DNA of 64,000 bases from Gemmatimonadales bacterium (GCA_030697825.1 JAUYOW010000214.1:548-64547); one strand, 5' to 3'; shown: positions 2-38,068, counted from the first letter of the stretch. Notes: generated by a model from the sequence alone, not told the origin. Made by a program: numbers and translations.

Positions 2-1243
2 GAGCGGCTCGCCCTGGACAAGTTCCGGGCCAAGTACCTCGGGAAGCCGTTCCCGGTCCACCCGACGTTCTTCCTCGGCGAAATCGCCCTGTTCAGCTTC
101 GTGGTGCTGGTGCTGACCGGGCTGTACCTCGCGCTGTTCTACGAGCCGTCGACGGAGATGGTGACTTCCGGCACCGTCACGGCGCCTGCCGCGTACGTGA
201 GCGTGCTGCTCATCGACGCTCACCCGCTCGGGGTGTTGATCAGGCGCATCCATCACTGGGCCGCGCACCTGATGATCGCGTCGGTGGGTCTGCACTTGGC
301 GCGGGTGTTCTTCACCGCGGCGTACCGCAAGCCGCGCGAGGTGAACTGGCTGCTGGGCCTGGCGCTGTTCGCCGGGACCATAGGGACGTCATTCGCGGGC
401 TACCTGCTGCCGTACGACCAGTTCTCGGTGACGGCCACCGCGATCGGCTACGGCATCGCGCGCTCGGCGCCGTGGGTAGGGGGGACGATCGCCGACTTCC
501 TGTTCGCCGGGCAGTTCCCCTCGCCGAGCACGGTCCCGCGCTTCTACGGCTACCACGTGGTCTTCGCGCCGCTGGTGCTCAGCGCGCTGATCGGTCTGCA
601 CCTGGTGATCGTGCTCAAGCAAAAGCACACCGAGTGGCCGAGGGTCGGCGCCGAACCGCCGCCCAAGGATGCCGGCCTGATCGCCGGGGTGCCCGCGTGG
701 CCCGGGCAGACGGTGCTGATGGTGGTCCTGTTCCTGATGCTGCTGGCGGCGCTGGCCACCCTGTCCGGCTTCCTCCCGGTTCATCCGACCGCCTACTTCG
801 GGCCGCCCCAGCCGGTGACGCCCGAGGTCAAGCCGGACTGGTACCTCATGTGGGTCTATGGCGCGCTGCGGATGATTCCGGGCGACATCAGCATTCACGT
901 GCTGGGAACCACGATCGGGTCGGAGGCTATCGGAGCGATGCTGGTGCCCGGCATCCTGGCCACGATCATCGTGCTGGTGCCATGGCTCGATCGCGCGCCG
1001 TCCTCGCTGTACTACGCCGAGAGCCCGCTCCGGAGCCCCGGACGGCTGGCCTTCGGGCTCGGCGGCATCACGCTGTTCCTCGCGCTTACGCTCGCGGGGT
1101 TCAGTGGCGAGCTCAAGCTGAGCACCCCGGTGCTGTGGATCGTCGCCGTGGTTGCACCACTCGCGGTCGGCTGTGCCACTTACGTGCTGGCTAAGCGCCG
1201 GCACGCGGCCGACGCATCGTCTCACTCAGGGAGGGATAGATGA
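2..1243 (+). CDS. cytochrome b of a bc-type complex (b6-like N-part and subunit-IV-like C-part in one polypeptide); 5' end lies outside the window
   Basis: Frame is open back to position 2 (ERLALDKFRAKYLGKPFPVHPTFFLGEIALFSF...). Haem-ligand helix RRIHHWAAHLMIASVGLHL. C-terminal PEVKPDWYLMWVYGALR motif. Many TM helices. Confidence 0.9.
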   Translation, partial: ERLALDKFRAKYLGKPFPVHPTFFLGEIALFSFVVLVLTGLYLALFYEPSTEMVTSGTVTAPAAYVSVLLIDAHPLGVLIRRIHHWAAHLMIASVGLHLARVFFTAAYRKPREVNWLLGLALFAGTIGTSFAGYLLPYDQFSVTATAIGYGIARSAPWVGGTIADFLFAGQFPSPSTVPRFYGYHVVFAPLVLSALIGLHLVIVLKQKHTEWPRVGAEPPPKDAGLIAGVPAWPGQTVLMVVLFLMLLAALATLSGFLPVHPTAYFGPPQPVTPEVKPDWYLMWVYGALRMIPGDISIHVLGTTIGSEAIGAMLVPGILATIIVLVPWLDRAPSSLYYAESPLRSPGRLAFGLGGITLFLALTLAGFSGELKLSTPVLWIVAVVAPLAVGCATYVLAKRRHAADASSHSGRDR

Positions 1244-1584
1244 ACCGACTGGTTGTCATTACCACGGCCGTCGCGGCACTGGCGTTCGGCGCCGGCAAGC
1301 TCGCCGCTCAGGCGCCCGATGGCGCTGCGCTCTACACCCGCAATTGCGTGACCTGCCACGGGGCCACCGGCGTACCGAACCCGGTCATGGTGCGGTCGCT
1401 CGGCGCCATCCCGGACCTCAGCGACGCTCGCGCCATGGCTGCGAAGGCGGACAGCTCCTTGATCGGCGCGGTCGCGAACGGAGTCGGCCGCAAGATGCCC
1501 GCCTACGGCACGCGCCTGACGGGAGAGCAGATCCGGGCCATCGTGACGCATCTGCGCACCCTGAGCCGGCGACCGTCCCCGTAG
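1240..1584 (+). CDS. monohaem class-I c-type cytochrome, secreted
   Basis: ATGA overlap with the cytochrome b stop. Signal peptide MNRLVVITTAVAALAFGAGKLAAQA. Single CVTCH haem motif plus a distal Met region (RKMPAYG). Confidence 0.8.
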   Translation: MNRLVVITTAVAALAFGAGKLAAQAPDGAALYTRNCVTCHGATGVPNPVMVRSLGAIPDLSDARAMAAKADSSLIGAVANGVGRKMPAYGTRLTGEQIRAIVTHLRTLSRRPSP

Positions 1585-1600
1585 CTGCGAGGAGTGAGAG

Positions 1601-2368
1601 GTGTTCGGCCGGTCTCGGGAATGGCGGGGTTGGCGCGCGGTCCCACAGCAGGTCCGGCGCCTGGCCGTCGCGTTCGCACTGGTGGCGGTCGCGTTCCTGA
1701 CCGCACGGCGGCTCTTCGTTCCCGCGACCTTCGGAGAGCGGGGGCACTATCGCGCCTCCGCGGTGGACACGATCCTGGCCAGCGAGATCCGCTACGCGGG
1801 CCATGAGGCGTGTGAGACGTGTCACGCTCCCGTCGCCGAGAAGAAGAGCCAGTCGTACCATCGCGGCGTGGCCTGCGAGGTGTGCCACGGCCCCCAGGCA
1901 GCCCACGTGTCCGCGCCGCTCGACAACAAGCCACCCGCGCCGCGCACCCGTGCGTATTGCCCGCTGTGCCACGGCTACAACCCGTCTCGCCCAACCGGCT
2001 TCCCGCAGATCGACCCGGCACTCCACAACCCGGTGCGGCCGTGCATCACGTGTCACGACCCGCACGACCCGACGCCGCCCCGTCCTCCGGAGAGCTGCGC
2101 GGCCTGCCACGGGCAGATCGCCCGCACCAAGGCCGTGTCCTACCACGCTCAGTTGCCGTGCACGCAGTGCCACGAGGCTGACCCGCGTCACGTGGTATCG
2201 CCGCGGCAGGTGCGACCGACCAAACCGAGCACCCGCGAGTTCTGCGGCCAGTGCCATGCGCAGGGCGCCGCGAGTGCGCCGGAGATCCCTCGCATAGACC
2301 TGGAGACGCACAACCGCGGCTACGTGTGCTGGCAATGCCACTATCCGCACCACCCCGAGGCGCGGTGA
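1601..2368 (+). CDS. octahaem c-type cytochrome with N-terminal membrane anchor
   Basis: GTG start preceded by GAGGAG. TM segment LAVAFALVAVAFLTA. Eight CXXCH motifs (CETCH, CEVCH, CPLCH, CITCH, CAACH, CTQCH, CGQCH, CWQCH). Confidence 0.85.
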   Translation: MFGRSREWRGWRAVPQQVRRLAVAFALVAVAFLTARRLFVPATFGERGHYRASAVDTILASEIRYAGHEACETCHAPVAEKKSQSYHRGVACEVCHGPQAAHVSAPLDNKPPAPRTRAYCPLCHGYNPSRPTGFPQIDPALHNPVRPCITCHDPHDPTPPRPPESCAACHGQIARTKAVSYHAQLPCTQCHEADPRHVVSPRQVRPTKPSTREFCGQCHAQGAASAPEIPRIDLETHNRGYVCWQCHYPHHPEAR

Positions 2369-3174
2369 TGCCCGGACGACCCCTCACTCTGGACCAAGTG
2401 CCGGTGGCCGGGCCCGCCGCTCCGGACCGGCGCGGCTTTCTCAAGGCCGCGGCGGCGGCGGTGCCGACGGTGCTGCTCGGGCTCGGGCAGGGAAGCGAGG
2501 CGGGAACCCAGCAGGAGGAAGGCCCGGTCCCGTACGATTCCCGCCAGCACTACTACGGCATGGGCATCGACGTGAACAAGTGCATCGGGTGCGGCCGCTG
2601 CGTGGAGGCGTGCGCGGCCGAGAACGACGTGCCGCGCGACGGGCACCATTTCCGCACCTGGGTGGAGCGCTACGTCATCACTGCTGACGGCGAGGCTGTG
2701 GTGGAAAGCCCGAACGGCGGGATCGAGGGCTTCTCAGGCGAGGTCGGCGAGCACGATGCGCTGCGGACCTTCTTCGTGCCGAAGCTGTGCAACCACTGCG
2801 CCAATCCGCCCTGCGTCCAGGTGTGCCCGGTGGGCGCGACGTTCACCACCGAGGACGGCGTGGTGCTGGTGGACGAGGACTGGTGCATCGGGTGCCGGTA
2901 CTGCATCCAGGCGTGCCCGTACGGGGCGCGGTTCCTGCACCCCACCAGGCGCGTCGCCCAAAAGTGCACCTTCTGCTACCACCGGATCGTGCAGGGCCTA
3001 TTGCCGGCCTGCGTCGAGGTGTGCCCTACCGGAGCGCGGATCTTCGGGGAGGTCCAGCGGCTCAGCACCCCGCTGGGGCGCTTCATGCGCTTCAACGAGA
3101 TCCAGGTGCTCAAGCCGTACCTGAACACCAAGCCCAAAGTGTTCTACGCCAACCTGGACGGAGAAGTGCGGTAG
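2368..3174 (+). CDS. NrfC/DsrO/HmcB-like 4x[4Fe-4S] ferredoxin subunit with Tat signal
   Basis: Start overlaps the upstream stop (TGATG). Twin-arginine motif DRRGFLKAAAAA. Cys clusters CIGCGRCVEAC, CNHCANPPCVQVCP, CIGCRYCIQACP and CTFCYHR...CVEVCP. Confidence 0.85.
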   Translation: MPGRPLTLDQVPVAGPAAPDRRGFLKAAAAAVPTVLLGLGQGSEAGTQQEEGPVPYDSRQHYYGMGIDVNKCIGCGRCVEACAAENDVPRDGHHFRTWVERYVITADGEAVVESPNGGIEGFSGEVGEHDALRTFFVPKLCNHCANPPCVQVCPVGATFTTEDGVVLVDEDWCIGCRYCIQACPYGARFLHPTRRVAQKCTFCYHRIVQGLLPACVEVCPTGARIFGEVQRLSTPLGRFMRFNEIQVLKPYLNTKPKVFYANLDGEVR

Positions 3175-3188
3175 CGAGGGGAGGCCGA

Positions 3189-4406
3189 TTGCAGGGCTAC
3201 ATCTATCCGAACGAGTACGAGCTGCACTGGGGCCTCCTGGTCGCCGTCTACCCCTACCTGACGGGTCTGGTGGCCGGGGCGTTCATCCTCGCGTCGTTGG
3301 CGAGGGTGTTCAACATGACCGAAGTGCAGCCCACGTACCGACTCTCGCTGCTTGCGGCGCTCGCCTGGCTGATCGCCGCCCCGCTGCCCCTGCTCGCCCA
3401 CCTCGGGCACCCGGAGCGCTCGTTCGAGATCTTCCTCACCCCGAACGTCCGCTCGGCGATGGCCATGTTCGGCTTCGTGTACGCCTGGTATCTGATGGTG
3501 GTCCTGCTGCTCGAGATCTGGTTCGACTACCGCAAGGACCTCGTCGTCTGGTCCCGGGGGGCGTCCGGCGTCCTGGCCCTGGTCCGGCGCGTGATGACCC
3601 TAGGCGCGAGCGACTTGTCGGACCGTGCCCTGCGCTTCGACCGTTCGGCGGGCAAGCTCATCACGATTATCGGCATCCCGTCGGCGTTTCTGCTGCACGG
3701 CTACGTAGGGTTCATCTTCGGGTCGGTGAAGGCCAATCCGTGGTGGAGCAGCGTGCTGATGCCGGTGGTGTTCCTGTTCTCGGCGATGGTCTCCGGCATC
3801 GCGCTCATGCTGCTGCTCTTCATGGTGACGAGCATGCTGCGCTCCAAGCCGGTGGACATGCGTTGCGCGGACAAGCTCGCGAGTCTGCTGTTCTATGCCC
3901 TCATCGTGGACTTCTCCCTGGAGATGCTCGACTTCACCCAGCGGCTGTACGAGGCGGAGGAATCGATCACGATTCTGGCGAGCATGCTTAAGAGCCGCCT
4001 GGTGCTCAGCCTGATCGTGCTCCAGGTGTCCCTCGGCACGATCGTGCCCTTGGTGGCGCTGGCCGCGGTGGCTCCGACCGTGAGGAAAGAGGGACTGGTG
4101 AAGACGCCGGAGGAGCTGCGGCGGCTGATCTACTTCATGGTGGGCGTGCTCATCCAGATCGGCATCTTCAGCACCCGCTGGAACGTGGTGATCGGCGGAC
4201 AGTTGTTCTCCAAGAGCCTGCGGGGTCTCACGGTGTACAAGGTCGAGCTCCTCGGCCTGGATGGCATCCTGATGGCGACGGCAATCCTCCTGCTGCCGTT
4301 CGTCATCCTCTATGTGCTGATCAAGCTGCTGCCTCCGTGGCCCGAAGCGGAGGCAGCCATGCCGGCGCAGGGAGCGGAGGCGCAGCCGATGGCTCAGGCA
4401 TCATGA
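3189..4406 (+). CDS. NrfD/PsrC-like polytopic membrane (quinone-interacting) subunit
   Basis: TTG start 5 nt after GGGGAGG. About 8-10 hydrophobic helices. Lies directly after the NrfC-like gene, the gene order typical of NrfCD/PsrBC-type modules. Confidence 0.8.
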   Translation: MQGYIYPNEYELHWGLLVAVYPYLTGLVAGAFILASLARVFNMTEVQPTYRLSLLAALAWLIAAPLPLLAHLGHPERSFEIFLTPNVRSAMAMFGFVYAWYLMVVLLLEIWFDYRKDLVVWSRGASGVLALVRRVMTLGASDLSDRALRFDRSAGKLITIIGIPSAFLLHGYVGFIFGSVKANPWWSSVLMPVVFLFSAMVSGIALMLLLFMVTSMLRSKPVDMRCADKLASLLFYALIVDFSLEMLDFTQRLYEAEESITILASMLKSRLVLSLIVLQVSLGTIVPLVALAAVAPTVRKEGLVKTPEELRRLIYFMVGVLIQIGIFSTRWNVVIGGQLFSKSLRGLTVYKVELLGLDGILMATAILLLPFVILYVLIKLLPPWPEAEAAMPAQGAEAQPMAQAS

Positions 4407-4810
4407 CTTCGCTCGCGCAGCGCAGCCTCGCGCTCGCCGCTCTGATCCTCGCGTGCGGAACCGGGCCGGCGAGCGCCCAGCGGCCTCAGCCGCCTAGGAT
4501 GCCACACCGGCCCGCCGGCAAGGAGCAGTGCCTGACGTGTCACGGGCCCGGAGCGAACCAGCACGTCCGGAGCACGCCGGCCAACCATCCGTACGGCGCG
4601 ACGGCATGCCCGATGTGCCATCGACCGAGCGAGACGCCGCCGCCGAACATCCCGCACCCCCTCGAGGAAGCGATGACGGATTGCCGCACCTGCCACGTCC
4701 CCGACGCGCCGCCGGGCGTCCCAACTCCCCCGGCGTCGCACGCCTCCTATGACGTATCCATCTGCCGGATGTGCCATGAGCCGGGCACGCCGCCTCCGCC
4801 GTCACGGTAG
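4403..4810 (+). CDS. tetrahaem c-type cytochrome lipoprotein
   Basis: ATGA overlap with the NrfD-like stop. Lipobox LILAC-G. Four CXXCH motifs (CLTCH, CPMCH, CRTCH, CRMCH). Pro-rich linkers. Confidence 0.8.
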   Translation: MTSLAQRSLALAALILACGTGPASAQRPQPPRMPHRPAGKEQCLTCHGPGANQHVRSTPANHPYGATACPMCHRPSETPPPNIPHPLEEAMTDCRTCHVPDAPPGVPTPPASHASYDVSICRMCHEPGTPPPPSR

Positions 4811-4878
4811 CGTCGGGCGGCTGACGCACCCGCTCGGCGGCGGCCGCATCCCGGCCGATCGCCCGGACTGGAACCCAA

Positions 4879-6546
4879 TTGTTAGATTCGCGTATGGTGC
4901 GACTCCTCTCCTGGGCCCTGCAACAGTGGCGGCGGACCGCGCTACGGTGGCGGGTCACTCTGGTGCTCCTGCTCTCGGCGACGCTCATCGGCTCGTCGGC
5001 GGCCGGCTACCGCCAGTGGAACTACATGCAGCACGACAACCGTTTCTGCACGTCGTGCCACTTGATGCAGGATCCCTTCGAGCGCTTCAACCGGAGCGCC
5101 CACGCGCAGCTCGAGTGCCACAGCTGCCACAAGGCGACGCTGAAAGCGCAGATGCGCCAGCTCTACCTCACGATGGTCGAGCGCCCGACGTCCATCGGCG
5201 GACACGCCGACGTGCCGAACAAGGTGTGCGCGGCCTGCCACATCAGGGGCGACTCCACCCGGTGGCGGATCATCGCCACGACCGCCGGTCACCGCGTGCA
5301 CCTGGAGTCGAAGGCTCCCGCGCTGCGCGGCATGCGGTGCGTCGCCTGCCACGGCGTGACCGTGCACGAGTTCGCGTCGGTGGACCGGACGTGCGGCCAG
5401 TCCGGGTGCCACGCCGCCAACCTGATTCGGCTGGGCGGAATGGGCCAGGCGAGCGAGCTGCACTGCACGACCTGTCACAACTTCCTCGCCGAGGCCCGCA
5501 CGGTGGAGGTGGACTCGCTCGGCCAGCCGTTGACGCCGGCCGCGGCGCAGTGCCTTTCCTGCCACTCCATGCAGGAGCGGATGGTCAACCTGGACGTGGC
5601 GCGCGATCCCCATGGAGGAGTGTGCGGTGACTGCCACAACCCCCACACCCAGACGTCGCCGCGGCAAGTGACTTGCGCGAGCGCGAGCTGCCACGCGGAC
5701 TGGCGCTCCCTGGGATTCCACGTGGGGGTGGCGCACCCCGAGCGCTGCACGACCTGCCACCTGCCTCACTCGTGGCGGGTCGAAGGGCAGAACTGCCTGA
5801 GGTGCCATGCCGACATCGGGCGCCAATCGCCGAGCCGGCCGCGCGCCGCGCCGGCCCGGCGTTCGGCGCTGCGGGTGAGGGGGGCGGTCCTGGACCTGGC
5901 CTCGGCGGCGGATCCCGCGTCGGTGTTCGCCATGCTTCAACTGGCGCAAGGCGGCGCGCGCGACTTGCCACGCTTCTCCCACGGTGATCACCGCGGCCAG
6001 ACCTGCGCCAGCTGCCACTCCAGCCGGGTGCGGCACGGCGAGCTGATGGTGCGCGCCACCGCCGACTGCCAGCGCTGCCACCACGCCGGTCCGGACCGGC
6101 AGCAGTGCGCGAGCTGCCACGCGCCGATGGACCTCCGCCGGGTGGCCGCCGCGGAGCCACGGTCCTTCCGCCTGTTGGCGAGCCGCGCGACCGTCACCCG
6201 ACGTCTCCCGTTCGACCATCAGCGGCACACGGCGGTCATGTGCGCCCAATGCCACTCGAACCCGATGAGCCGGGCGCCAGAGAGTGCCGACTGCGCCTCA
6301 TGCCATGCCAGCCACCACCGGTCCGCCGCCAACTGCGTCGCCTGCCACGCCGGGGCCAATCCGCTCGCGTCGCACCGCGCGGCTGACCACGCGACCTGCG
6401 CCACGGCGTCGTGCCACGGTGAGCGCGCCGCGGCGCTTCCCGCGTCGCGCGAGGCCTGTCTGATGTGCCACACCGGCCAGACCCGGCACTTGCCGGGCCG
6501 CAACTGCGAGCAATGCCACCGGGTCACGGCGGCGGGCAGCCGATGA
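4879..6546 (+). CDS. NapC/NirT/NrfH-type membrane-anchored giant multihaem cytochrome c (17 CXXCH plus 3 CX4CH)
   Basis: N-terminal TM helix VTLVLLLSATLIGSSAAG followed at once by CTSCH...CHSCH...CAACH...CVACH (a NapC-like tetrahaem head), then 13 more CXXCH. CGQSGCH, CASASCH and CATASCH are CX4CH candidates. Start is TTG 4879 or ATG 4894. Confidence 0.85.
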   Translation: MLDSRMVRLLSWALQQWRRTALRWRVTLVLLLSATLIGSSAAGYRQWNYMQHDNRFCTSCHLMQDPFERFNRSAHAQLECHSCHKATLKAQMRQLYLTMVERPTSIGGHADVPNKVCAACHIRGDSTRWRIIATTAGHRVHLESKAPALRGMRCVACHGVTVHEFASVDRTCGQSGCHAANLIRLGGMGQASELHCTTCHNFLAEARTVEVDSLGQPLTPAAAQCLSCHSMQERMVNLDVARDPHGGVCGDCHNPHTQTSPRQVTCASASCHADWRSLGFHVGVAHPERCTTCHLPHSWRVEGQNCLRCHADIGRQSPSRPRAAPARRSALRVRGAVLDLASAADPASVFAMLQLAQGGARDLPRFSHGDHRGQTCASCHSSRVRHGELMVRATADCQRCHHAGPDRQQCASCHAPMDLRRVAAAEPRSFRLLASRATVTRRLPFDHQRHTAVMCAQCHSNPMSRAPESADCASCHASHHRSAANCVACHAGANPLASHRAADHATCATASCHGERAAALPASREACLMCHTGQTRHLPGRNCEQCHRVTAAGSR

Positions 6547-7934
6547 CGATGCGTGCGCCGCGGGCTCGGCTGGTCAGCATGGCGCTCGGCGCCCTGGTGG
6601 TCGCGGCGAGTTCGGCCGACGGCCAATCGGTTCGCGTCCGATCCTCGACCACCGCCCGCTACGTCCAGCTTCAGCCTATCCGTTACGACACCGATTCCGG
6701 CGCCTTCCTGCCGCTTCCCGTCACCTACGCGGCGCCCATCACCCAGGACGTCGAGCTGTCGGTGTGGGGGCTCGGCGTTCCGGGGCTCCGGGCATACGCC
6801 CTGCTCCGCGGCCGCGCGGCGCTGGGCTCAGAGCTGGTGTGGCCGAGGTCCGACGACCGTTTCGACGCGCTGGAGGCCTTCGTTGAACTGGAGCGTCCGC
6901 TGTACCGGATCCGCGCCGGACGGCAGCATCGGGCGTCGGGTCTCGGCTGGTATGCGTTCGACGGGGTGAGCGCCACCTGGCGTCCGCGCCCCACCGTGCG
7001 CACCGAATGGTACGGCGGGCGCGGCTTCACCCGAGGGTTCCTCGAGCCGCTGGGCAGCGGGGCCCTGCGGTCGCTCGATCCCCTGCGTCCCGAACAGAGC
7101 ACCATCCTTCTGGGCGCATCCCTGTGGGCGGCGCCGACGTCCGCCAGCGCCGTAACGGCGATCTACCAGCGCGAGATTCTCAGCGACCGGAGCGGTCTGG
7201 TGTCGGAACGCGCCGCCATCGACGCGCGGATCGGTGTCGGCTCGCGGCTGGTGCTGACGGCCGCGGCGGACGCGGACCTGGCTCTCGAGACTTGGGGCCG
7301 GGCGCGGGCGAGCGCCCTGGTGAGGCTGGGCCGGCGCAGCTTCCTGGAGATCGAAGGGTTCCGCTACAAGCCACTGCTGGATCTCACCACCATCTGGGGC
7401 GTGTTCTCACCGGAAGCGCACCGCGGCGTTGCCGTCAGCGCGCGCCTGGCCCCGACCCGGAGCGTAGCACTGTCGACGTCGTACATCTACCGGCGCTACG
7501 AGCCTTTGACCCGCGGGACGCCGTTCCTCCTCGACGTGGACGACGAGGCGCAGCAGCTCACGGCCGGTGCGCGCTACGCCATCGGCGACGTGGTCGTGGA
7601 AGGAACCTATCGCCTGCAGTTCGGCTTCGGCGGCGCCCAGAGCGGCGGCGACGCGGCGCTGGCCTGGGCGCCGCCGGATGGCTGGCGCGCCGGGCTCCGC
7701 GGGACTGCCTTCCAGCAGGAGGAGGCGTTCCGGGTCGCCGATGGCACGGTGTACGGCGTCGGCCTCGACGCGAGTGGACGGCTGGGCGATCGCGCCAGGC
7801 TGCGCGCCGAGCTGATGCGCTACCTGCATCGGCCCACAGGACAGAGCGCGGTGAACTGGTCGCAGACGCGGGCCCTGCTCGGCTTCGAGTTCTGGATCGG
7901 GGCCAACCCCGACCGGCCTGGGGCGTACCGGTGA
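6543..7934 (+). CDS. predicted outer-membrane beta-barrel (porin-like) protein
   Basis: ATGA overlap with the upstream stop. Signal peptide MTMRAPRARLVSMALGALVVAASSADGQ. No Cys/haem motifs. Repeated about 10-residue alternating hydrophobic/polar stretches (e.g. RLVLTAAADADLALE, VVVEGTYRLQFGF, TVYGVGLDASGRL, ALLGFEFW). The assignment is structural inference only. Confidence 0.5.
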   Translation: MTMRAPRARLVSMALGALVVAASSADGQSVRVRSSTTARYVQLQPIRYDTDSGAFLPLPVTYAAPITQDVELSVWGLGVPGLRAYALLRGRAALGSELVWPRSDDRFDALEAFVELERPLYRIRAGRQHRASGLGWYAFDGVSATWRPRPTVRTEWYGGRGFTRGFLEPLGSGALRSLDPLRPEQSTILLGASLWAAPTSASAVTAIYQREILSDRSGLVSERAAIDARIGVGSRLVLTAAADADLALETWGRARASALVRLGRRSFLEIEGFRYKPLLDLTTIWGVFSPEAHRGVAVSARLAPTRSVALSTSYIYRRYEPLTRGTPFLLDVDDEAQQLTAGARYAIGDVVVEGTYRLQFGFGGAQSGGDAALAWAPPDGWRAGLRGTAFQQEEAFRVADGTVYGVGLDASGRLGDRARLRAELMRYLHRPTGQSAVNWSQTRALLGFEFWIGANPDRPGAYR

Positions 7935-9346
7935 TACCGGGCGTGTGGATCGGGCTCGTCGCGGCGGTCGCCTCGGCACTCGCCGCCACGCGGCAGCCGG
8001 CCGATGCGCCGCCCCGGGCTCCGGCGACGCCGGTTCTCGCGGCCGACTCGTTCCCCCATCCGCGGCACGCGCGCCTTTTCACCTCTTGCACTACCTGCCA
8101 CTCCGGACTCGCGGGCGAAGACTCCACGGCCTTCTTTCCCGCGGCGGACGTATGCGTCCCATGCCATGACGGCGCCTTGGTGCGCCGAATCGATTGGGCG
8201 GGGCCGGGACCGCGGCGACCCACCAACTTGAGCTTCTCGCACCGCGCGCACCCAGAGATCGATTGCGCCATGTGCCACGCCGCCAGCGATACGGCCGCCT
8301 TCATGGAGGTGGGGAGAGCGCGCCCCGAGCGCTGCCTGATGTGTCACGCCCCGGAGGCGGCAAGCCACCTGGAGCAGGAGAGCTGCACCCAGTGCCACCG
8401 GGTCCTGACGGAAGCCAGGGCGCTGACGGCGGCCGACATCGCGCGCTTCCCCAAGCCGCCGTCCCACGATTCCGGATGGGTCTTCACCCATAGGCGCGCG
8501 GCGGCGGGCCCCACGTGTGCCACTTGTCACGCCCGAGAGTTCTGCGCCTCCTGCCACGTCAACGCGGCCGGCGTGGAGGCGGTGCGCGCGCTGCCCACCG
8601 ACGAGCGCGTCGCCGCACTGGCACGCGCTCGGCACGTGACTTACCGGGAGCCATCGTCCCATCGCAGCGCCAGCTTCGTCCGCTCCCATGGGCTGCTGGC
8701 GCGCGAGAGCGCGGCTACGTGTGGCAATTGCCACGCGCGCGAGTCGTGCCTCACCTGTCACCGTGAGGAGGAGCGCGTCGGACCGGTGGCGCTGCTGCCG
8801 CGGCGCACCCGCGGGGGGGCGCGGGGGGTGGATTTGCGGGACATCAGGCCGCCGGATCATTCGCCCGACTTCCAGCTCCGGCACCGCACCGCCGCCGCCG
8901 TCGGGGACGCCGTTTGCAGCCGGTGCCACAGCCCGTCCTACTGCGCCAGCTGCCACGCCGGTGCCGCAGCCCCCGGCTTCCATGGGCCCGACTTCGTCGA
9001 GCGGCACTCGGAGAACGCCTACACGCGCGAGAACGATTGCGCCGCCTGCCACCAGCCTGAGGCGTTCTGCGTCCAGTGCCACCGGGCCACCGGCCGCGCC
9101 GCCTCCCAGGCGCCGATCGGCCGGTTCCACGACGCGCAGCCGGCGTGGATCTTCGGGCACGGCGGGGTCGCCCGGCGGGCCATCGAGAACTGCGCCAGCT
9201 GTCACGCCCAGGCCGACTGCCTCCAATGCCACTCGGCGTCGGTCGGCTGGCGCGTGAACCCGCACGGGCGGAGCTTCGACAGCGGACTTGGCGACCGGAA
9301 TCCCGCCATGTGCCGCCGCTGCCACCCCGGCGGCCCGCCCCGATAG
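7931..9346 (+). CDS. 16-haem c-type cytochrome (c3/c7-like repeated modules), secreted
   Basis: GTGA overlap with the barrel-gene stop. Signal peptide VIPGVWIGLVAAVASALAA. 16 CXXCH. Recurrent module H-x(8-12)-CxxCH-x(3-4)-CxxCH (e.g. THRRAAAGPTCATCHAREFCASCH). Confidence 0.85.
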   Translation: MIPGVWIGLVAAVASALAATRQPADAPPRAPATPVLAADSFPHPRHARLFTSCTTCHSGLAGEDSTAFFPAADVCVPCHDGALVRRIDWAGPGPRRPTNLSFSHRAHPEIDCAMCHAASDTAAFMEVGRARPERCLMCHAPEAASHLEQESCTQCHRVLTEARALTAADIARFPKPPSHDSGWVFTHRRAAAGPTCATCHAREFCASCHVNAAGVEAVRALPTDERVAALARARHVTYREPSSHRSASFVRSHGLLARESAATCGNCHARESCLTCHREEERVGPVALLPRRTRGGARGVDLRDIRPPDHSPDFQLRHRTAAAVGDAVCSRCHSPSYCASCHAGAAAPGFHGPDFVERHSENAYTRENDCAACHQPEAFCVQCHRATGRAASQAPIGRFHDAQPAWIFGHGGVARRAIENCASCHAQADCLQCHSASVGWRVNPHGRSFDSGLGDRNPAMCRRCHPGGPPR

Positions 9347-9354
9347 GAGCCGCA

Positions 9355-10488
9355 ATGCCTGATACCCACGTTGCCGAACGCGCCGACGGCCACCACCTTG
9401 CAGGCGAGACCATGAGCGCTGCCACCACCGCCATCGATCCGGCGCTCGTCGCCGCGATCATCGACCTCTCGGCCGACGCCATCCTCACCGTTTCGCCCGA
9501 CGAGGTCGTGATGTCGTGGAACCAGGGCGCCCGGGAGATGTTCGGGTGGACGGCAGAGGAAATAGTCGGAAGACCGTTCACTGTTCTGCTGCCGGACGAG
9601 GCCATCGCGCGCGGCGAGCTGGAGTGGATCCACAGAACCACTCTGGCTGAAGGCGCGATCCGCAACTACGAGACCCGGCGCAGGCGCAGGGACGGCACCG
9701 TTTTCGACGTGAGCCTGACCCGTACCGCGGTGCGCGCACCCAACGGCGACCTGCTGGGATTCTCCGCCATCCTGCGCGACGTCTCCGACCGCAAGCGCCT
9801 CGAGCGCCAGCTCGCGCAGTCCGAGCGCCTCGCGACCGCCGGACAGGTCGCGGCCGGAGTCGCCCACGAGATAGGGGCACCGCTGACCGCGATCGCCATA
9901 GCGGTGGACCACATGCTGCGCTCGCGCTGTGCGGTCTGCGAAGGCGCCGAGGAGATGCGGATCCTCCAGTCGCAGACCGACCGGATCGCCAAGCTGGCGC
10001 GCCAGCTCGTCAACCTCGCCAAGCCGGCCGGCCTCTTGCTGGCCCCGGTAAACGTCAACGACGTCATCGCGCAGACGTCAGGCCTGATCCAGGCGCAGCT
10101 CCACCGTCACGCCGTACTGGTCACCCTGGACCTCGATCCCGAGCTGCCGGCCGTGCTCGGCGATGAGGCCCAGATCCAGCAGGTGTTCGTCAACCTGCTG
10201 CTCAACGCGCAGCACGCCCTCGAGGCCAGGGGGGGGAGGGTGAGGATCGAGACCGGGCGCGCGGACGCCAGGACCATCGAGATAGTCGTTTCCGATGACG
10301 GCCACGGCATCGAGGCATCGGACCTTCCGCACATCTTCACGCCGTTCTTCTCCCGTTCCGGCGGGACGGGCCTCGGCCTGGCCCTGGCCGCCCAGATAGT
10401 GCGCGCGCACCACGGCACCATCGAAGCGGCCTCGCCGGAGGGCGGCGGAGCACAGTTCATCATCCGGCTTCCCACGGCGGACGCATGA
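9355..10488 (+). CDS. cytoplasmic PAS-domain sensor histidine kinase
   Basis: PAS-like N-terminus (ILTVSPDEVVMSWNQGAREMFGWTAEEIVGRP). H-box AAGVAHEIGAPL. HATPase N/G boxes (NLLLNAQHAL, DDGHGI, GGTGLGLA). No TM segment seen. Confidence 0.85.
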   Translation: MPDTHVAERADGHHLAGETMSAATTAIDPALVAAIIDLSADAILTVSPDEVVMSWNQGAREMFGWTAEEIVGRPFTVLLPDEAIARGELEWIHRTTLAEGAIRNYETRRRRRDGTVFDVSLTRTAVRAPNGDLLGFSAILRDVSDRKRLERQLAQSERLATAGQVAAGVAHEIGAPLTAIAIAVDHMLRSRCAVCEGAEEMRILQSQTDRIAKLARQLVNLAKPAGLLLAPVNVNDVIAQTSGLIQAQLHRHAVLVTLDLDPELPAVLGDEAQIQQVFVNLLLNAQHALEARGGRVRIETGRADARTIEIVVSDDGHGIEASDLPHIFTPFFSRSGGTGLGLALAAQIVRAHHGTIEAASPEGGGAQFIIRLPTADA

Positions 10489-11915
10489 CCGAGCCCGACG
10501 TTCCCGTCGCTCCGGTGCGCCGCGTCCTGGTGGTCGAGGATGACGCCGTGGTGCGCCGCCTGCTCGAGAAGGTCCTCACCGACGAGGGGTACGAGACCGT
10601 GGGCGCCGCTTCCGGCGAGGAGGCGCTCACCGAGCTCGGCCGCCACCTCTTCGATGCCGTGCTCCTCGACCTCAACCTTCCCGGCATACAGGGTATGGAC
10701 GTGCTGGCGGTGGGCCCGACCCTCCAGACCGATACGCCTTTCATCGTGATGACGGCGTTCGGCTCGGTCGATACGGCCGTCGAGGCCATGAAGAACGGCG
10801 CGTTCGACTACGTGAGCAAGCCGTTCCGCACCGACGAGCTCCTCCTCACGCTGCGCCGCGCCCACGAGGAGACGGTACTCCGGCGGGAGGTGGCGCAGCT
10901 GAGGCGCCGGGTGAAAGAGGAGGGGCCCGGCGTCCGCATGGTGGGCAAGAGCGCGGGCATCGAGCGCGTCCGCGACCTAATCGCGCGGGTCGCGCCCAGC
11001 CGCGCCACGGTGCTCATCAGCGGGGACACGGGGACCGGCAAGGAGCTCGTCGCCCGCTCGATCCACGCCCTGTCGGGCCGCGCCGAGCATGCCTTCGTAG
11101 CCGTGAACTGCGCCGCGATCCCCGAGACGCTGATCGAGTCCGAGCTGTTCGGCCACATGAAGGGCGCGTTCACCGGAGCGATCGCGAACAAGCGCGGCCT
11201 GCTGGAGGAGGCGTCCGGCGGCTCGCTCTTCCTCGACGAGGTCGGCGCCATCTCGGCGAACATTCAGGTCAAGCTGCTGCGCACGCTCCAGGAGCGCACC
11301 ATCCTGCGGGTCGGCGGCCGCGAGCCGGTGCCGATAGACATCCGCCTGATCGCCGCCACCAACCTCGATCTCGCGGAGGAAGTGCGCGAAGGACGGTTCC
11401 GCGAGGACCTCTTCTACCGGGTGAGCGTTTTCCCGATCCACGTGCCGTCGCTGCGGGAGCGGCGCGACGACATCCCGGTCCTCGCCTCGTACTTCCTCCG
11501 GCGCGCCGCTTCCGAGCACGGGGTGGAGGCGCCGGCGATCCCGCCGGCCACCATGCAGCGGTTGCTGGACTACGACTGGCCGGGCAACGTCCGCGAGCTC
11601 GAGAATTTCGTCGAGCGCTCGGTGATCATGCACGCGGGCGCCAAGACGATCCCCTTCGATCCCAGCGAGGGCCTGCACCGCCGCCAGGAGCACGACCTGC
11701 TGAAGACGGCCCGCGCGGAACGGTGGAACCTGGAACGCCTCGAGCGCGAGTACATCCTTTCCGTGCTCGAGGAAGCAGGCGGTCACCAGGGCAAGGCCGC
11801 CGATGTCCTCGGCATCGACCGCCGCACCCTCTACCGGAAGCTGAAGCTGTATGGCGGGGAGACTGATGCCAGCGTCGAGGGCACGGTTCCCGAGGCCGAG
11901 GCGGCCCAGTCCTAA
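10485..11915 (+). CDS. sigma54-dependent response regulator (NtrC family: receiver + AAA+ + Fis-type HTH)
   Basis: ATGA overlap with the kinase. Receiver VLLDLNLPG. Walker A GDTGTGKE. GAFTGA motif. Walker B LFLDEVG. C-terminal HTH AADVLGIDRRTLYRKLKLYG. Confidence 0.9.
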   Translation: MTEPDVPVAPVRRVLVVEDDAVVRRLLEKVLTDEGYETVGAASGEEALTELGRHLFDAVLLDLNLPGIQGMDVLAVGPTLQTDTPFIVMTAFGSVDTAVEAMKNGAFDYVSKPFRTDELLLTLRRAHEETVLRREVAQLRRRVKEEGPGVRMVGKSAGIERVRDLIARVAPSRATVLISGDTGTGKELVARSIHALSGRAEHAFVAVNCAAIPETLIESELFGHMKGAFTGAIANKRGLLEEASGGSLFLDEVGAISANIQVKLLRTLQERTILRVGGREPVPIDIRLIAATNLDLAEEVREGRFREDLFYRVSVFPIHVPSLRERRDDIPVLASYFLRRAASEHGVEAPAIPPATMQRLLDYDWPGNVRELENFVERSVIMHAGAKTIPFDPSEGLHRRQEHDLLKTARAERWNLERLEREYILSVLEEAGGHQGKAADVLGIDRRTLYRKLKLYGGETDASVEGTVPEAEAAQS

Positions 11916-12059: not shown

Positions 12060-12074
12060 GTGTGTCCTTGGAGC

Positions 12075-12737
12075 ATGGTGGAGTCACTTCTCATCGCGGT
12101 AGACGCCGCACCGTTCGCCGACCGAGTCGGCGGCTGGCTTCCTGACCTGCTGCGGGCCGGGGTCCGGCGCGTCACGCTGTTCCACGCGATCGAGGCCGTG
12201 GGACCCGATGTCGCGGCGGAGCTGGACGACCTGCGGCCGAGGCTGGACCGGCTCGCCGTGCAGCTATCGGCGAAGTCGGTCGAGGTCGAGCTCTCGTTCA
12301 AGCGCGGGGACAGGTTCCGGTGGCTGGTCTCTCTCGTCGCCTTGCGCGGGTGCCAGCTGGTGGTGCTGGGCCCTCACTGCTCGCTGCGCGGGAAGGCGCG
12401 CTCGGTAGGATCTCTCCTCAGGCGTCTCCTCGGCGAGTCTCCGGCTCCGCTGCTGGTCCTTCCGCGCCCCCGGACCGAGAGCGATCCCGGGCTGTTCGAT
12501 CGACCGATCTTGGTCGAGGGGCGGGCGCAGGAACCGTGGCTCGATTCCCAGGCGCGTACGCTCGTTCCAACGGCGCTCCATTCCGCGACCCTCGAGCCCG
12601 GCGGCGGATCCCCGCCGGGCGCTTCGCTGCTGGTCACCGGGCGTTCGCCGGCCGGCGGCCGTCTGGAAGAGTTGCTGTTCGACGCACCCTGCCCGGTGCT
12701 CGTTATTCCCGCCCATGCCGACGCAATTCACGCCTAG
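12075..12737 (+). CDS. universal stress protein (Usp)-like, tandem-domain
   Basis: MVESLLIAVDAAP...VTLFHAIE...LVVLGPH...APLLVLP, and a second ...PCPVLVIPAH ending typical of Usp domains. An alternative GTG start is at 12060. Confidence 0.45.
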   Translation: MVESLLIAVDAAPFADRVGGWLPDLLRAGVRRVTLFHAIEAVGPDVAAELDDLRPRLDRLAVQLSAKSVEVELSFKRGDRFRWLVSLVALRGCQLVVLGPHCSLRGKARSVGSLLRRLLGESPAPLLVLPRPRTESDPGLFDRPILVEGRAQEPWLDSQARTLVPTALHSATLEPGGGSPPGASLLVTGRSPAGGRLEELLFDAPCPVLVIPAHADAIHA

Positions 12738-12777
12738 CATGGGGCGAGCACCCCGAGCCCTACCGTAGGTTCTGGAA

Positions 12778-12801
12778 CAGCGGCGGCTTCGGCCGCCGCT
12801 G
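12778..12801. terminator. perfect 10-bp stem / TTCG-loop hairpin between convergent genes
   Basis: CAGCGGCGGC-TTCG-GCCGCCGCTG, between the Usp-like stop (12737) and the HNH stop (12808). No U-tract, so the call is structure only. Confidence 0.45.
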
Positions 12802-12807
12802 GCGCGT

Positions 12808-13365
12808 TCAGGCGTGCGCGGCGAGTTGGGCGAGGACCTGCTGCCCGTAGAACAGGCCGATGTAACGGGCCTGGGTGGGCGTGAGGCGCCGCACCGCCCA
12901 AGCCAGATGCACGAAGTGCGGCTCGGTGGGCGGGGTGAGCGGGAACATCCCCAGCTCCTCGGGGAGGTGGTTGCCCTTGCGCGCGTTGCAGGTGGAGCAC
13001 GCGGTGACGACGTTGGTCCACGCGTCGGTACCGCCCCGCGAGAATGGAACGAGGTGGTCGCGCGTCAGGCACTCGCGGTGCTTGAGCGTGGCCTGGGTCC
13101 GGCCGCAGAACTGGCACCGGTAGTCGTCACGCGCGAAGAGGAAGGTGTTCGTCACCTGGCGGCGGAACCGCCTCGGCACGTGGACGTACTTGTTCAGGCG
13201 GATGACCGCGGGACGCGGCAGCGCGAGCCGCTCGGAGCGGACGACGCGATCCGCGTCGGCCTCCACGATCTCGGCCTTCCCGTCGATGACCAGCCTGAGC
13301 GCCCGCCTGACGGGCACCATGGTGAGCGGCTCGAAAGACGCATTGAGCGCCAGACAGCGTACCAC
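12808..13365 (-). CDS. HNH endonuclease family protein
   Basis: CQFCGR...LTRDHLVPFSRGGTDAWTNVVTACSTCNARKGNH (HNH/zinc-ribbon signature). Confidence 0.8.
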   Translation of the reverse strand: MVRCLALNASFEPLTMVPVRRALRLVIDGKAEIVEADADRVVRSERLALPRPAVIRLNKYVHVPRRFRRQVTNTFLFARDDYRCQFCGRTQATLKHRECLTRDHLVPFSRGGTDAWTNVVTACSTCNARKGNHLPEELGMFPLTPPTEPHFVHLAWAVRRLTPTQARYIGLFYGQQVLAQLAAHA

Positions 13366-37995: not shown

Positions 37996-38012
37996 CCACT
38001 GTGCGAAAAGGC

Positions 38013-38027: not shown

Positions 38028-38068
38028 TTAAGCAAGCGGACCGCACCTCAGTGAACCGAGCCGGGGAC

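What the first reader, a model, noticed from the sequence alone, without database searches (positions are those of the whole stretch)
6543..9346. Candidate porin-cytochrome conduit: a haem-free beta-barrel gene sandwiched between a 17-20-haem and a 16-haem cytochrome
Gene 6543-7934 has a signal peptide, no Cys/haem motifs, and the alternating amphipathic strand pattern of an outer-membrane barrel. It is translationally coupled on both sides, by ATGA at 6543 and GTGA at 7931, to giant multihaem cytochromes. Cytochrome-barrel-cytochrome is the logic of MtrCAB, PioAB/MtoAB and the Geobacter OmaB-OmbB-OmcB Pcc complexes. However, the partner sizes (555 aa with 17+3 haems; 471 aa with 16 haems), the NapC-like anchor on one partner and the linkage to a bc-type complex differ from those described systems. 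The direction of flow is open. It could be outward (metal or electrode reduction) or inward (Fe(II) or electrode oxidation feeding the bc complex).
Basis: inference. Interest (0 to 1): 0.85.

Follow-up and report, generated by a model that had tools for sequence, protein, structure and literature searches.

The report
Gemmatimonadota outer-membrane barrel-cytochrome electron conduit
A haem-free gene between two giant multi-haem cytochromes encodes a predicted 22-strand outer-membrane barrel of an unnamed family, found so far only in Gemmatimonadota and always paired with such cytochromes, so it is very probably a new version of the "porin-cytochrome" wires that carry respiratory electrons across the cell envelope.

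Summary
Gene 6543-7934 encodes 463 aa with no Cys and a signal peptide. It is joined by 4-nt overlaps (ATGA, GTGA) to a 20-haem cytochrome upstream (17 CxxCH + 3 CxxxxCH, NapC/NirT membrane anchor) and a 16-haem cytochrome downstream.

AlphaFold2 (pLDDT 80.6) folds the middle protein as a 22-strand beta-barrel. The 50 best of 344 significant PDB fold matches are all outer-membrane barrels. It matches no Pfam or NCBIfam family, including MtrB/PioB.

The family has 382 clusters at 50% identity, and every named member is a Gemmatimonadota MAG. A multi-haem cytochrome follows the barrel in 33 of 33 loci, with the same 4-nt overlap in 29.

Relatives also carry a conserved 9-haem lipoprotein cytochrome upstream, which completes the MtrCAB-like part list. 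That gene is not next to the trio in this window.

Most likely mechanism, inferred rather than shown: quinol to the membrane-anchored 20-haem wire, then to the 16-haem cytochrome inside the barrel, then outside. Direction and substrate remain open.

This is a new variant of a known kind. It is of moderate to high interest because Gemmatimonadota are abundant and poorly understood in soil and groundwater.

The parts
2..1243 (+). Cytochrome b (bc1/QcrB-like). The open frame reaches the window edge, and the first listed start is GTG 101.
   Evidence: Cytochrom_B_N_2 at E=3.9e-47. NF050120 bc1 QcrB at E=1.4e-70, below the curated cut-off. The stop overlaps the next gene's start as ATGA at 1240.
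1240..1584 (+). Monohaem class-I cytochrome c, 114 aa, with a signal peptide.
   Evidence: 1 CxxCH. The L032 110-aa orthologue is 51% identical and carries Cytochrom_C/CBB3 Pfam hits.
1601..2368 (+). Octahaem cytochrome c, 255 aa, with an N-terminal hydrophobic anchor or signal.
   Evidence: 8 CxxCH. Cytochrome_C7 and Paired_CXXCH hits. 75% identical to the L033 259-aa gene that sits next to FeS-NrfD.
2368..3174 (+). NrfC/DsrO/TtrB-like four-cluster FeS protein with a Tat signal (RRGFLK).
   Evidence: Fer4_11 at E=3e-28. TtrB and DsrO hits, below their curated cut-offs. Start fixed.
3189..4406 (+). NrfD/PsrC-type integral-membrane quinone-interacting subunit.
   Evidence: PF03916 NrfD at E=2.2e-34. 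TTG start at 3189.
4403..4810 (+). Tetrahaem cytochrome c, 135 aa. It has a possible lipobox (LILAC) in this genome only.
   Evidence: 4 CxxCH and an ATGA overlap with NrfD. 57% identical to the L033 134-aa gene, which has no Cys in its signal peptide.
4894..6546 (+). cytA: a 550-aa, 20-haem cytochrome with an N-terminal TM helix and a NapC/NirT/NrfH quinol-dehydrogenase module.
   Evidence: 17 CxxCH + 3 CxxxxCH, all invariant in 21 sequences, plus 22 further conserved His. PF03264 hit. NrfH 2j7a_C match. Conserved TM helix and motif. The identical NCBI protein is named a NapC/NirT family cytochrome c.
6543..7934 (+). The finding: a 463-aa haem-free protein with a Sec signal peptide and a predicted 22-strand outer-membrane beta-barrel, of a new Gemmatimonadota family.
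   Evidence: 0 Cys. AF2 pLDDT 80.6, pTM 0.73. The 50 best of 344 significant Foldseek PDB hits are all OM barrels. No Pfam or NCBIfam family. 382 family clusters.
7931..9346 (+). cytB: a 471-aa, 16-haem cytochrome with a Sec signal peptide and no lipobox. It is the proposed barrel insert.
   Evidence: 16 CxxCH. 16 CxxCH plus 16 further His are invariant in 37 sequences, consistent with all-bis-His ligation. The start overlaps the barrel stop by 4 nt in 29 of 33 loci.
9355..10488 (+). PAS-domain histidine kinase (an alternative start is GTG 9310).
   Evidence: PAS, HisKA and HATPase_c hits. It is syntenic in L001, L032 and L034.
10485..11915 (+). Sigma-54-dependent response regulator (NtrC type).
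   Evidence: Response_reg, Sigma54_activat and HTH_8 hits. It is syntenic in relatives.

Best explanation
Gene 6543-7934 encodes a 22-strand outer-membrane beta-barrel with no plug domain. It belongs to an unnamed family seen so far only in Gemmatimonadota.

I propose that the barrel acts as the insulating sheath of a porin-cytochrome complex. The 16-haem, all-bis-His cytochrome encoded immediately downstream (cytB, translationally coupled) would sit inside the barrel and carry electrons across the outer membrane, as MtrA does in MtrB and PioA/MtoA do in PioB/MtoB.

The upstream 20-haem cytochrome (cytA) is tethered in the inner membrane by a NapC/NirT/NrfH-type module that exchanges electrons with the (mena)quinol pool. 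Its roughly 16 extra haems would form a periplasmic wire that feeds cytB.

The favoured direction is outward: quinol to cytA, to cytB in the barrel, to an extracellular acceptor such as Fe(III)/Mn(IV) minerals or humics. In most relatives a 9-haem surface lipoprotein cytochrome would be the last step.

Shown here by computation: the gene structure, the haem and His conservation, the barrel prediction, and the invariant barrel-cytochrome pairing.

Inferred: that cytB is inside the barrel, that cytA bridges the periplasm, and the direction and substrate.
For: 1. Barrel fold. AF2 gives a signal helix plus 22 long strands at pLDDT 80.6. The 50 best of 344 significant PDB fold hits are all OM barrels. 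The best TM-scores (0.52-0.55) are to 22-strand TonB-dependent receptor barrels, and MtrB (6r2q_B) is also hit. All long loops (10-21 aa) fall after odd-numbered strands and all other turns are 2-6 aa, which is the canonical OMP topology.

2. Empty lumen. The mature protein has only about 437 residues and no loop longer than 21 aa, so nothing in it can fill a 22-strand lumen. A partner protein in the lumen is the simplest reading (inference).

3. Dedicated pairing. A multi-haem cytochrome starts immediately downstream in 33 of 33 loci, with a 4-nt stop/start overlap in 29, even where the barrels are only about 30-35% identical. Distant members L036 and L037 keep the order lipoprotein cytochrome, barrel, Sec-secreted cytochrome.

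4. cytB is a pure electron-transfer wire. It has 16 invariant CxxCH plus 16 invariant extra His and about 28 aa per haem, which is denser than MtrA's roughly 33 (PMC5566968). It has a Sec signal and no lipobox.

5. cytA has a conserved TM helix and NapC/NirT motif, and all 20 of its haem sites are invariant.

6. Relatives carry a ~500-aa cytochrome (8 CxxCH + 1 further motif) with a conserved lipobox directly upstream, an analogue of MtrC/OmcB.

7. Context. The trio is co-directional and tightly packed with cytochrome b, an FeS/NrfD module and small cytochromes. Two CbcL-like quinol-oxidase genes lie elsewhere in the window.
Against: - No multimer model, fractionation or phenotype exists. Placing cytB inside the barrel rests on analogy and gene linkage alone.
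- The AF2 model of cytB is only moderately confident (pLDDT 71, with the C-terminal third below 50) and matches no solved cytochrome fold, so a rod shape was not verified.
- I could not read the model coordinates, so the lumen size is an estimate from strand number.
- The lipoprotein cytochrome found in relatives is not next to the trio in this window and was not found elsewhere in the 64 kb.
- One relative (L016) lacks cytA within about 10 kb.
- The barrel does not end in a terminal aromatic residue.
- No cultured Gemmatimonadota is known to me to respire metals (own knowledge).
- The linked bc complex and monohaem c would also fit inward electron flow.
Confidence: 0.6

Rival explanations
1. 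The architecture is the same but the flow is reversed. The barrel-cytB unit takes electrons from extracellular Fe(II), Mn(II), reduced humics or a cathode, as MtoAB and PioAB do. It passes them through cytA and the small cytochromes to the bc complex, a terminal oxidase, or uphill to the quinone pool.
For: - The trio is consistently linked to a Rieske/cytochrome b complex and a monohaem class-I cytochrome c. These are the usual partners in Fe(II)-oxidiser models (PMC5566968).
- In this window the extracellular lipoprotein cytochrome is absent, as in MtoAB/PioAB.
- An NrfCD-type module with cytochromes can act as a quinone reductase, like Qrc (one search shows weak QrcC/QrcD similarity).
Against: - NapC/NirT/NrfH modules normally work as quinol dehydrogenases (established knowledge).
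- All 36 haems appear to be bis-His, with c3/c7-type signatures that are typical of low-potential outward wires.
- Most relatives have a surface lipoprotein cytochrome, as metal reducers do.
- I looked for no carbon-fixation context, and none came up. The source habitats are groundwater, peat, permafrost and sediment.
Confidence: 0.22
2. The barrel is an ordinary solute channel. It admits a soluble redox substrate (chelated metal, an oxyanion such as selenite or tellurite, or a sulfur compound) to periplasmic cytochrome reductases. Neither cytochrome enters or crosses the outer membrane.
For: - Fold hits include diffusion channels: MOMP, OccD/OccK, chitoporin and AlgE.
- Two of 37 family members weakly hit Pfam Porin_4, best E=4e-4.
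- The cytochrome b weakly resembles ExtP of the Geobacter selenite/tellurite ext operon, below the cut-off.
Against: - A 22-strand barrel with loops of 21 aa or less and no plug would be an unusually large open hole (inference).
- Strict 4-nt translational coupling to a 16-haem cytochrome in 29 of 33 loci suggests fixed stoichiometry rather than a shared pathway.
- cytB shows no candidate catalytic haem, because every haem has a conserved distal His.
- The conserved surface-type lipoprotein cytochrome in relatives has no role in this model.
Confidence: 0.1
3. The barrel is a dedicated export or assembly pore, like an usher or Slam. It moves cytB or the lipoprotein cytochrome to the cell surface and is not itself part of the electron path.
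For: - 24-strand FimD usher barrels are among the top fold hits, TMq 0.45.
- cytB has only a Sec signal yet would need to reach the surface in some models.
- The lipoprotein cytochrome in relatives also needs a route to the surface.
Against: - The protein has no plug, POTRA or periplasmic chaperone-binding domain. It is barrel only.
- No chaperone-like gene is conserved next to it.
- The similarity to ushers is no better than to other large barrels.
Confidence: 0.06

Closest known systems
MtrCAB of Shewanella (structure 6R2Q) and the two-component MtoAB/PioAB
   Same: An outer-membrane barrel gene is co-transcribed with a haem-dense, Sec-secreted, all-bis-His cytochrome. Relatives add a surface lipoprotein cytochrome. 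A NapC/NirT-type quinol dehydrogenase supplies the chain, as CymA does. MtrB is among the structural hits.
   Different: - There is no sequence match to MtrB_PioB or to the MtrA/DmsE HMMs.
- The barrel has 22 predicted strands against 26.
- The haem counts are 16 and 20 instead of 10.
- The CymA-like module is fused to about 16 extra haems and encoded in the same operon.
- No periplasmic shuttle is needed in principle.
- The lipoprotein has 9 haem motifs, not 10, and is absent from this window.
Geobacter Pcc (OmbB-OmaB-OmcB) and the Ext clusters (ExtABCD, ExtEFG, ExtHIJKL with ExtMNOPQS)
   Same: A porin-like barrel of about 20 strands sits beside periplasmic and lipoprotein multi-haem cytochromes. 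These barrels are unrelated in sequence to Mtr (PMC5566968, PMC6295460). The Ext clusters are also linked to a b-type cytochrome complex, and the window's cytochrome b weakly hits the ExtP model.
   Different: - The haem numbers differ: 8 and 12 in Pcc (PMC5566968) against 16 and 20 here.
- The membrane-anchored NapC/NirT fusion is not part of Pcc or Ext (own knowledge).
- The phylum is different.
- Homology to OmbB/ExtB/ExtE/ExtI could not be tested because no reference sequences were available.
PCC3 and PCC4 clusters of Fe(II) oxidisers (He et al. 2017, PMC5566968)
   Same: These are candidate conduits predicted from genomes, with a porin plus very haem-rich wire cytochromes of low aa-per-haem ratio. 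PCC4 subgroup II also has a PF13247 FeS gene. Links to redox inner-membrane proteins and bc1 genes are noted in MAG surveys (PMC13264449).
   Different: - PCC3 and PCC4 are defined by a conserved ~300-aa 5-TM protein with two WX3HX13H motifs. No such gene is in this array.
- PCC3 porins have up to 42 predicted strands, and their extracellular cytochromes have a median of 34 haems and repetitive sequence.
- Hosts are mostly Proteobacteria.
NrfH / CymA / NapC (NapC/NirT family quinol dehydrogenases)
   Same: cytA shares the N-terminal TM helix, the first haem motifs and the spacing (FCxSCHxM ... SxH ... CHxCH).
   Different: Family members have 4-5 haems and about 160-200 aa. cytA has 20 haems and 550 aa. 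It scores far below the NrfH equivalog cut-off, 34.8 against 134.2 bits.

Membership tests
MtrB/PioB/MtoB barrel family (PF11854, TIGR03509) | The barrel sequence matches the MtrB_PioB profile. | tested here: not met
   The window protein has no Pfam hit even at E<=10. It has no NCBIfam hit at E<=0.1. None of the 37 family members hits MtrB_PioB at E<=1.
MtrB/PioB/MtoB barrel family (PF11854, TIGR03509) | A large barrel of 26 strands or more. | tested here: not met
   The AF2 secondary structure gives 22 transmembrane strands by loop parity. TM-score to MtrB 6r2q_B is 0.42, against 0.52-0.55 to 22-strand receptors. This is a prediction, not a solved structure.
MtrB/PioB/MtoB barrel family (PF11854, TIGR03509) | The partner is a decahaem MtrA/DmsE/PioA/MtoA cytochrome (TIGR03508). 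| tested here: not met
   cytB has no hit. cytA scores 25.1 bits against a cut-off of 192.2. The haem counts are 16 and 20.
Geobacter Pcc (OmbB-OmaB-OmcB) | An octahaem periplasmic cytochrome and a dodecahaem lipoprotein cytochrome flank the porin. | tested here: not met
   The flanking cytochromes have 20 haems (membrane-anchored) and 16 haems (Sec-secreted, no lipobox). No lipoprotein cytochrome lies next to the trio.
Geobacter Pcc (OmbB-OmaB-OmcB) | Sequence homology to OmbB, OmaB or OmcB. | not testable with these tools
PCC3/PCC4 (PMC5566968) | A conserved ~300-aa 5-TM inner-membrane protein with two WX3HX13H motifs in the cluster. | tested here: not met
   Every gene from 101 to 11915 is assigned to another family: cytochrome b, cytochromes c, an FeS protein, NrfD, a histidine kinase and a response regulator. 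No such hypothetical membrane protein is present. I did not run a motif search.
NapC/NirT family (cytA N-terminal module) | An N-terminal TM helix is followed directly by the first CxxCH, and the Pfam PF03264 match passes the gathering score. | tested here: met
   PF03264 scores 24.4 bits against a cut-off of 24.1, which is marginal. NrfH 2j7a_C matches at E=1.4e-4. The TM helix and motif are conserved in 18 homologues. NCBI names the identical protein a NapC/NirT family cytochrome c.
NapC/NirT family (cytA N-terminal module) | A tetra- or pentahaem protein of about 160-200 aa. | tested here: not met
   cytA is 550 aa with 20 invariant haem motifs. It is a fusion or extension, not a canonical member.
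Porin-cytochrome complex (functional class) | An outer-membrane beta-barrel is encoded beside, and co-transcribed with, a secreted multi-haem cytochrome. | tested here: met
   Barrel prediction. A 4-nt overlap with the 16-haem cytB gene in the window and in 29 of 33 loci.
Porin-cytochrome complex (functional class) | The cytochrome is physically inserted in the barrel and transfers electrons across the membrane. | not testable with these tools
   No multimer prediction tool was available, and the AF2 model coordinates could not be read. This needs AF3 or AF-multimer with haems, or biochemistry.
Porin-cytochrome complex (functional class) | A surface lipoprotein cytochrome (in the three-component MtrCAB/Pcc type). 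| tested here: not met
   It is absent from the window. It is present with a conserved lipobox in about 20 related loci.

The most novel reading that the evidence does not exclude
The trio would be a self-sufficient, 36-haem hard-wired path from the inner-membrane quinol pool to the cell surface. The NapC/NirT-anchored 20-haem cytA would physically span the periplasm and dock onto the 16-haem cytB threaded through a 22-strand barrel, with no soluble periplasmic shuttle. This would give the abundant but physiologically obscure Gemmatimonadota a lineage-specific capacity for extracellular electron transfer that current marker-gene surveys such as Mtr/Pcc/Cyc2 HMMs do not detect.
Probability: 0.3. 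Interest if true: 0.8.

Novelty: new variant of a known kind. Interest (0 to 1): 0.6.

Why it matters
Gemmatimonadota are among the most abundant phyla in soils, groundwater and sediments, yet their anaerobic energy metabolism is largely unknown.

This barrel family matches no Pfam or NCBIfam family, including MtrB/PioB. Surveys that rely on such HMMs probably miss it, so iron- and manganese-cycling budgets may undercount these organisms.

If it is a real conduit, it would be another independent invention of the porin-cytochrome solution. It has an unusual feature: a quinol dehydrogenase fused to a long haem wire. That could make the long-standing question of how electrons cross the periplasm directly testable in a minimal three- or four-protein system.

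It would also give an HMM-ready marker (alignment A1) for environmental surveys.

Tried and rejected
- **Known families for the barrel.** Pfam at E<=10 and NCBIfam at E<=0.1 gave nothing. Scanning all 37 family members gave only weak Porin_4 and OMP_b-brl hits in 2 members each.
- **cytB structure.** The AF2 model (pLDDT 71) gave no significant PDB fold hit. The best was an ACIII haem subunit at E=2.6. phmmer of cytB against PDB sequences gave only a c7-like domain at E=0.19. The shape of cytB therefore stays untested.
- **Sigma-54 promoter.** A TGGCAC-N5-TTGC search, prompted by the adjacent NtrC-type regulator, found 51 matches against 55.6 expected by chance, and none convincing upstream of cytA. 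I dropped this line.
- **Lipoprotein nonahaem cytochrome in the window.** tblastn found only 26%-identity haem-motif hits.
- **Window contig look-up.** Searching by the identical cytA protein found no record. The 97%-identical contig L034 is too short to show what lies upstream.
- **ORF 38069-39610 as a second barrel.** It is a multi-TM inner-membrane protein with no similarity to the barrel.
- **Literature.** Searches on Gemmatimonadota/Gemmatimonadetes with porin-cytochrome, multihaem and EET terms found no description of this cluster.
- **Chance ORF in GC-rich DNA.** I rejected this because of 175 homologues at 50-97% identity and the conserved synteny.


Full report
**1. Observation**

- ORF 6543-7934 encodes 463 aa with no Cys and no haem motif.
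- Its ATG overlaps the stop of the upstream gene (ATGA at 6543).
- Its stop overlaps the GTG of the downstream gene (GTGA at 7931).
- The upstream protein has 17 CxxCH and 3 CxxxxCH motifs. The downstream protein has 16 CxxCH.

The one correction concerns the upstream start. A 100%-identical NCBI protein, [quoted passage not shown], is 550 aa and sits on a 65.7-kb contig. That puts the start at ATG 4894, not TTG 4879.

**2. The gene array**

Pfam and NCBIfam scans and start-codon mapping give a co-directional, tightly packed array:

| Coordinates | Gene |
|---|---|
| to 1243 | cytochrome b |
| 1240-1584 | monohaem cytochrome c |
| 1601-2368 | octahaem cytochrome c |
| 2368-3174 | Tat-exported NrfC/DsrO-like FeS protein |
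| 3189-4406 | NrfD-type membrane subunit |
| 4403-4810 | tetrahaem cytochrome c |
| 4894-6546 | cytA |
| 6543-7934 | barrel |
| 7931-9346 | cytB |
| 9355-10488 | PAS histidine kinase |
| 10485-11915 | sigma-54 response regulator |

Six junctions are 1- or 4-nt overlaps. The largest gap is 83 nt, before cytA.

**3. The middle protein is an outer-membrane barrel of a new family**

It matches no Pfam family, even at E<=10, and no NCBIfam family. Among 37 family members scanned one by one, only two weakly hit Porin_4 (best E=4e-4), two hit OMP_b-brl, and none hits MtrB_PioB.

AlphaFold2 on a 37-sequence alignment (A1) gives pLDDT 80.6 and pTM 0.73. The model has an N-terminal signal helix and then beta strands throughout.

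Foldseek against the PDB returns 344 hits at E<=1e-3, and the 50 best, which are the ones listed, are all outer-membrane barrels. The best TM-scores (0.52-0.55) are to 22-strand TonB-dependent receptor barrels. FimD ushers score 0.45 and MtrB (6r2q_B) scores 0.42.

Reading the DSSP string with the loop-parity rule gives 22 transmembrane strands.

- Every long connection falls after an odd-numbered strand: 44-60, 94-107, 166-186, 276-291, 321-334 and 391-400. These would be extracellular loops.
- Every connection after an even-numbered strand is 2-6 residues. These would be periplasmic turns.
- The beta hydrophobic moment of the strands is 5.3 SD above shuffles.

The mature chain is about 437 aa and has no plug or extra domain. 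Its longest loop is 21 aa. By the standard barrel-geometry relation, 22 strands give a backbone radius near 20 Å (my calculation). Nothing in this protein could fill such a lumen. This is an inference, because I could not read the coordinates.

**4. The family is specific to Gemmatimonadota and dedicated to cytochromes**

A word-indexed search found 175 homologues at 50-97% identity, named only as hypothetical proteins of Gemmatimonadetes/Gemmatimonadales MAGs. One is labelled Acidimicrobiales.

An exhaustive profile search of 1.84 billion representatives found 382 clusters at E<=1e-3 and 258 at E<=1e-10. The named distant members are again Gemmatimonadota.

A scan of one genome per GTDB species returned 30 loci. 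All are Gemmatimonadota MAGs, from groundwater, peat, permafrost, fen, soda-lake sediment and similar habitats.

Across 33 loci with usable downstream sequence, a multi-haem cytochrome gene starts immediately after the barrel in all 33. In 29 its start codon overlaps the barrel stop by 4 nt. This includes loci whose barrels are only 32-37% identical to the window's.

The 20-haem cytA lies directly upstream in most loci. It lies downstream of cytB in L015 and is absent within about 10 kb in L016.

**5.

In about 20 relatives, a ~500-aa cytochrome with 8 CxxCH and one further haem motif precedes cytA or the barrel. It carries a strongly conserved lipobox (for example ..ATACVKD....AAGCVKD....LAGCVDE..). 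The +2 residue is never Asp, and a low-complexity linker follows. This is the signature of a surface lipoprotein cytochrome such as MtrC or OmcB.

Distant members keep the same logic.

- L036 reads lipoprotein nonahaem, barrel, 12-haem cytochrome.
- L037 reads lipoprotein nonahaem, 11-haem cytochrome, b561 cytochrome b, 21-haem lipoprotein, barrel, 16-haem cytochrome.

So the inner-membrane module is interchangeable (a NapC/NirT fusion or a CbcL-like b561 pair). The barrel-cytB pair is invariant, and the lipoprotein is present in most loci with enough upstream sequence.

In this window the lipoprotein gene is not next to the trio, and it was not found in the 64 kb. The tetrahaem gene occupies that position instead.

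**6. The two cytochromes**

*cytB.* All 16 CxxCH motifs and 16 additional His are invariant in 37 sequences. This is consistent with all haems being bis-His and gives no sign of a catalytic site. It has a Sec signal peptide and, in general, no lipobox. It has about 28 residues per haem, which is denser than MtrA's roughly 33 (PMC5566968).

*cytA.* All 20 haem motifs, including the three CxxxxCH, are invariant in 21 sequences, with 22 further conserved His. Its N-terminus is a TM helix followed by a conserved NapC/NirT signature. It matches PF03264 just above the gathering score and the NrfH structure 2j7a_C at E=1.4e-4.

cytA is therefore a CymA/NrfH-like quinol dehydrogenase extended by about 16 haems. 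Whether it reaches across the periplasm is inference.

**7. Mechanism**

The best-supported reading is a porin-cytochrome conduit. cytB would occupy the barrel and conduct electrons across the outer membrane. cytA would connect it to the quinone pool. Relatives would add a surface lipoprotein cytochrome.

I favour outward flow, for four reasons:

- The NapC/NirT module is normally a quinol dehydrogenase.
- All haems appear to be bis-His.
- Relatives have a surface lipoprotein cytochrome, as metal reducers do.
- The source habitats are groundwater, peat, permafrost and sediment.

The conserved link to a Rieske/cytochrome b complex, a DOMON protein and a monohaem c keeps inward flow, meaning Fe(II) or electrode oxidation, a live alternative.

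Two other rivals are less likely. A plain diffusion porin feeding periplasmic reductases, or a dedicated export pore, is hard to square with the missing plug, the strict translational coupling, the absence of any catalytic-looking haem, and the absence of accessory domains.

**8. Comparison with known systems**

In function the array resembles MtrCAB with CymA, MtoAB/PioAB, the Geobacter Pcc and Ext clusters, and the predicted PCC3/PCC4 clusters (PMC5566968, PMC6295460). It fails the membership tests for each:

- No MtrB_PioB or MtrA/DmsE profile match.
- 22 predicted strands instead of 26.
- 16 and 20 haems instead of 10, or 8 and 12.
- No PCC3/PCC4-type 5-TM membrane protein.

Homology to OmbB and the Ext barrels could not be tested.

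Generic surveys already report uncharacterised porin-cytochrome clusters in MAGs, some with petB/petC nearby (PMC13264449). None of the papers I retrieved describes this Gemmatimonadota family.

I therefore class it as a new variant of a known kind: an independent barrel family with an unusual quinol-dehydrogenase-wire fusion.

**9. Limits**

- No multimer prediction tool was available, and model coordinates could not be read.
- Two fold libraries were unavailable.
- The cytB model was only moderately confident and matched no solved fold.
- A sigma-54 promoter search was uninformative.
- Localisation, complex formation, direction and substrate all remain to be shown by experiment.

Noticed in passing
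window 31113-38325 (minus strand): A second EET-type locus. It holds two tandem CbcL/MtoC-like genes, each with about 11 CxxCH plus a C-terminal Ni_hydr_CYTB (b561) domain. Next to them are another sigma-54 response regulator and a HAMP histidine kinase.
   Followed up: partly
L002-L033, directly upstream of cytA or the barrel (e.g. L032 6714-8198): A conserved ~500-aa cytochrome (8 CxxCH + 1 further motif) with an invariant lipobox, likely a surface cytochrome. It is present in about 20 related loci but absent next to the trio in this window.
   Followed up: yes
L037 2283-10930: A distant family member in which the NapC/NirT-anchored cytA is replaced. In its place are an 11-haem cytochrome, a separate b561 cytochrome b and a 21-haem protein with its own lipobox. 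The inner-membrane module is therefore swappable around a constant barrel-cytB core.
   Followed up: partly
L001, L032, L033 (e.g. L032 12936-17049, minus strand): In relatives a convergent operon follows the trio: monohaem c, a ~270-aa multihaem cytochrome, (FeS-NrfD), a DOMON-domain protein, Rieske, cytochrome b. In the window the cytochrome b and NrfCD genes are instead co-directional and upstream, and no DOMON or Rieske gene is visible. They may lie off the window's 5' end.
   Followed up: partly
window 4403-4810: The signal peptide of the tetrahaem cytochrome contains a possible lipobox (LILAC-GTG). Its 57%-identical orthologue in L033 lacks it. If the lipobox is used, this small cytochrome might stand in for the missing lipoprotein cytochrome.
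   Followed up: no
L006 10930-12841 and L017 11423-13075: cytB is split into a 9-haem ORF and a 7-haem ORF in two long-read MAGs. This is either a frameshift or assembly error, or a pseudogene.
   Followed up: no
window 12060-13416; L001 and L032 downstream ends: A ~225-265-aa protein (faint Usp hit in L032) and an HNH endonuclease on the opposite strand stay syntenic downstream of the kinase/regulator pair across relatives.
   Followed up: no
L001 784-3231, L032 1-961, L033 4169-6575: An Omp85-like ~590-aa protein and a ~220-aa secreted protein recur a few kb upstream of the cytochrome cluster in relatives. In L033 they lie directly upstream. They are not seen in the window.
   Followed up: no
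P0028 and P0284: Adjacent barrel and cytA homologues on one 4.5-kb contig are labelled Acidimicrobiales (Actinomycetota, monoderm) by NCBI. This is probably a mis-binned Gemmatimonadota contig.
   Followed up: no
window 38069-39610 (minus strand): A 513-aa ORF with no Pfam hit. It is a multi-pass hydrophobic membrane protein next to the second kinase/regulator pair, and it is not related to the barrel.
   Followed up: partly
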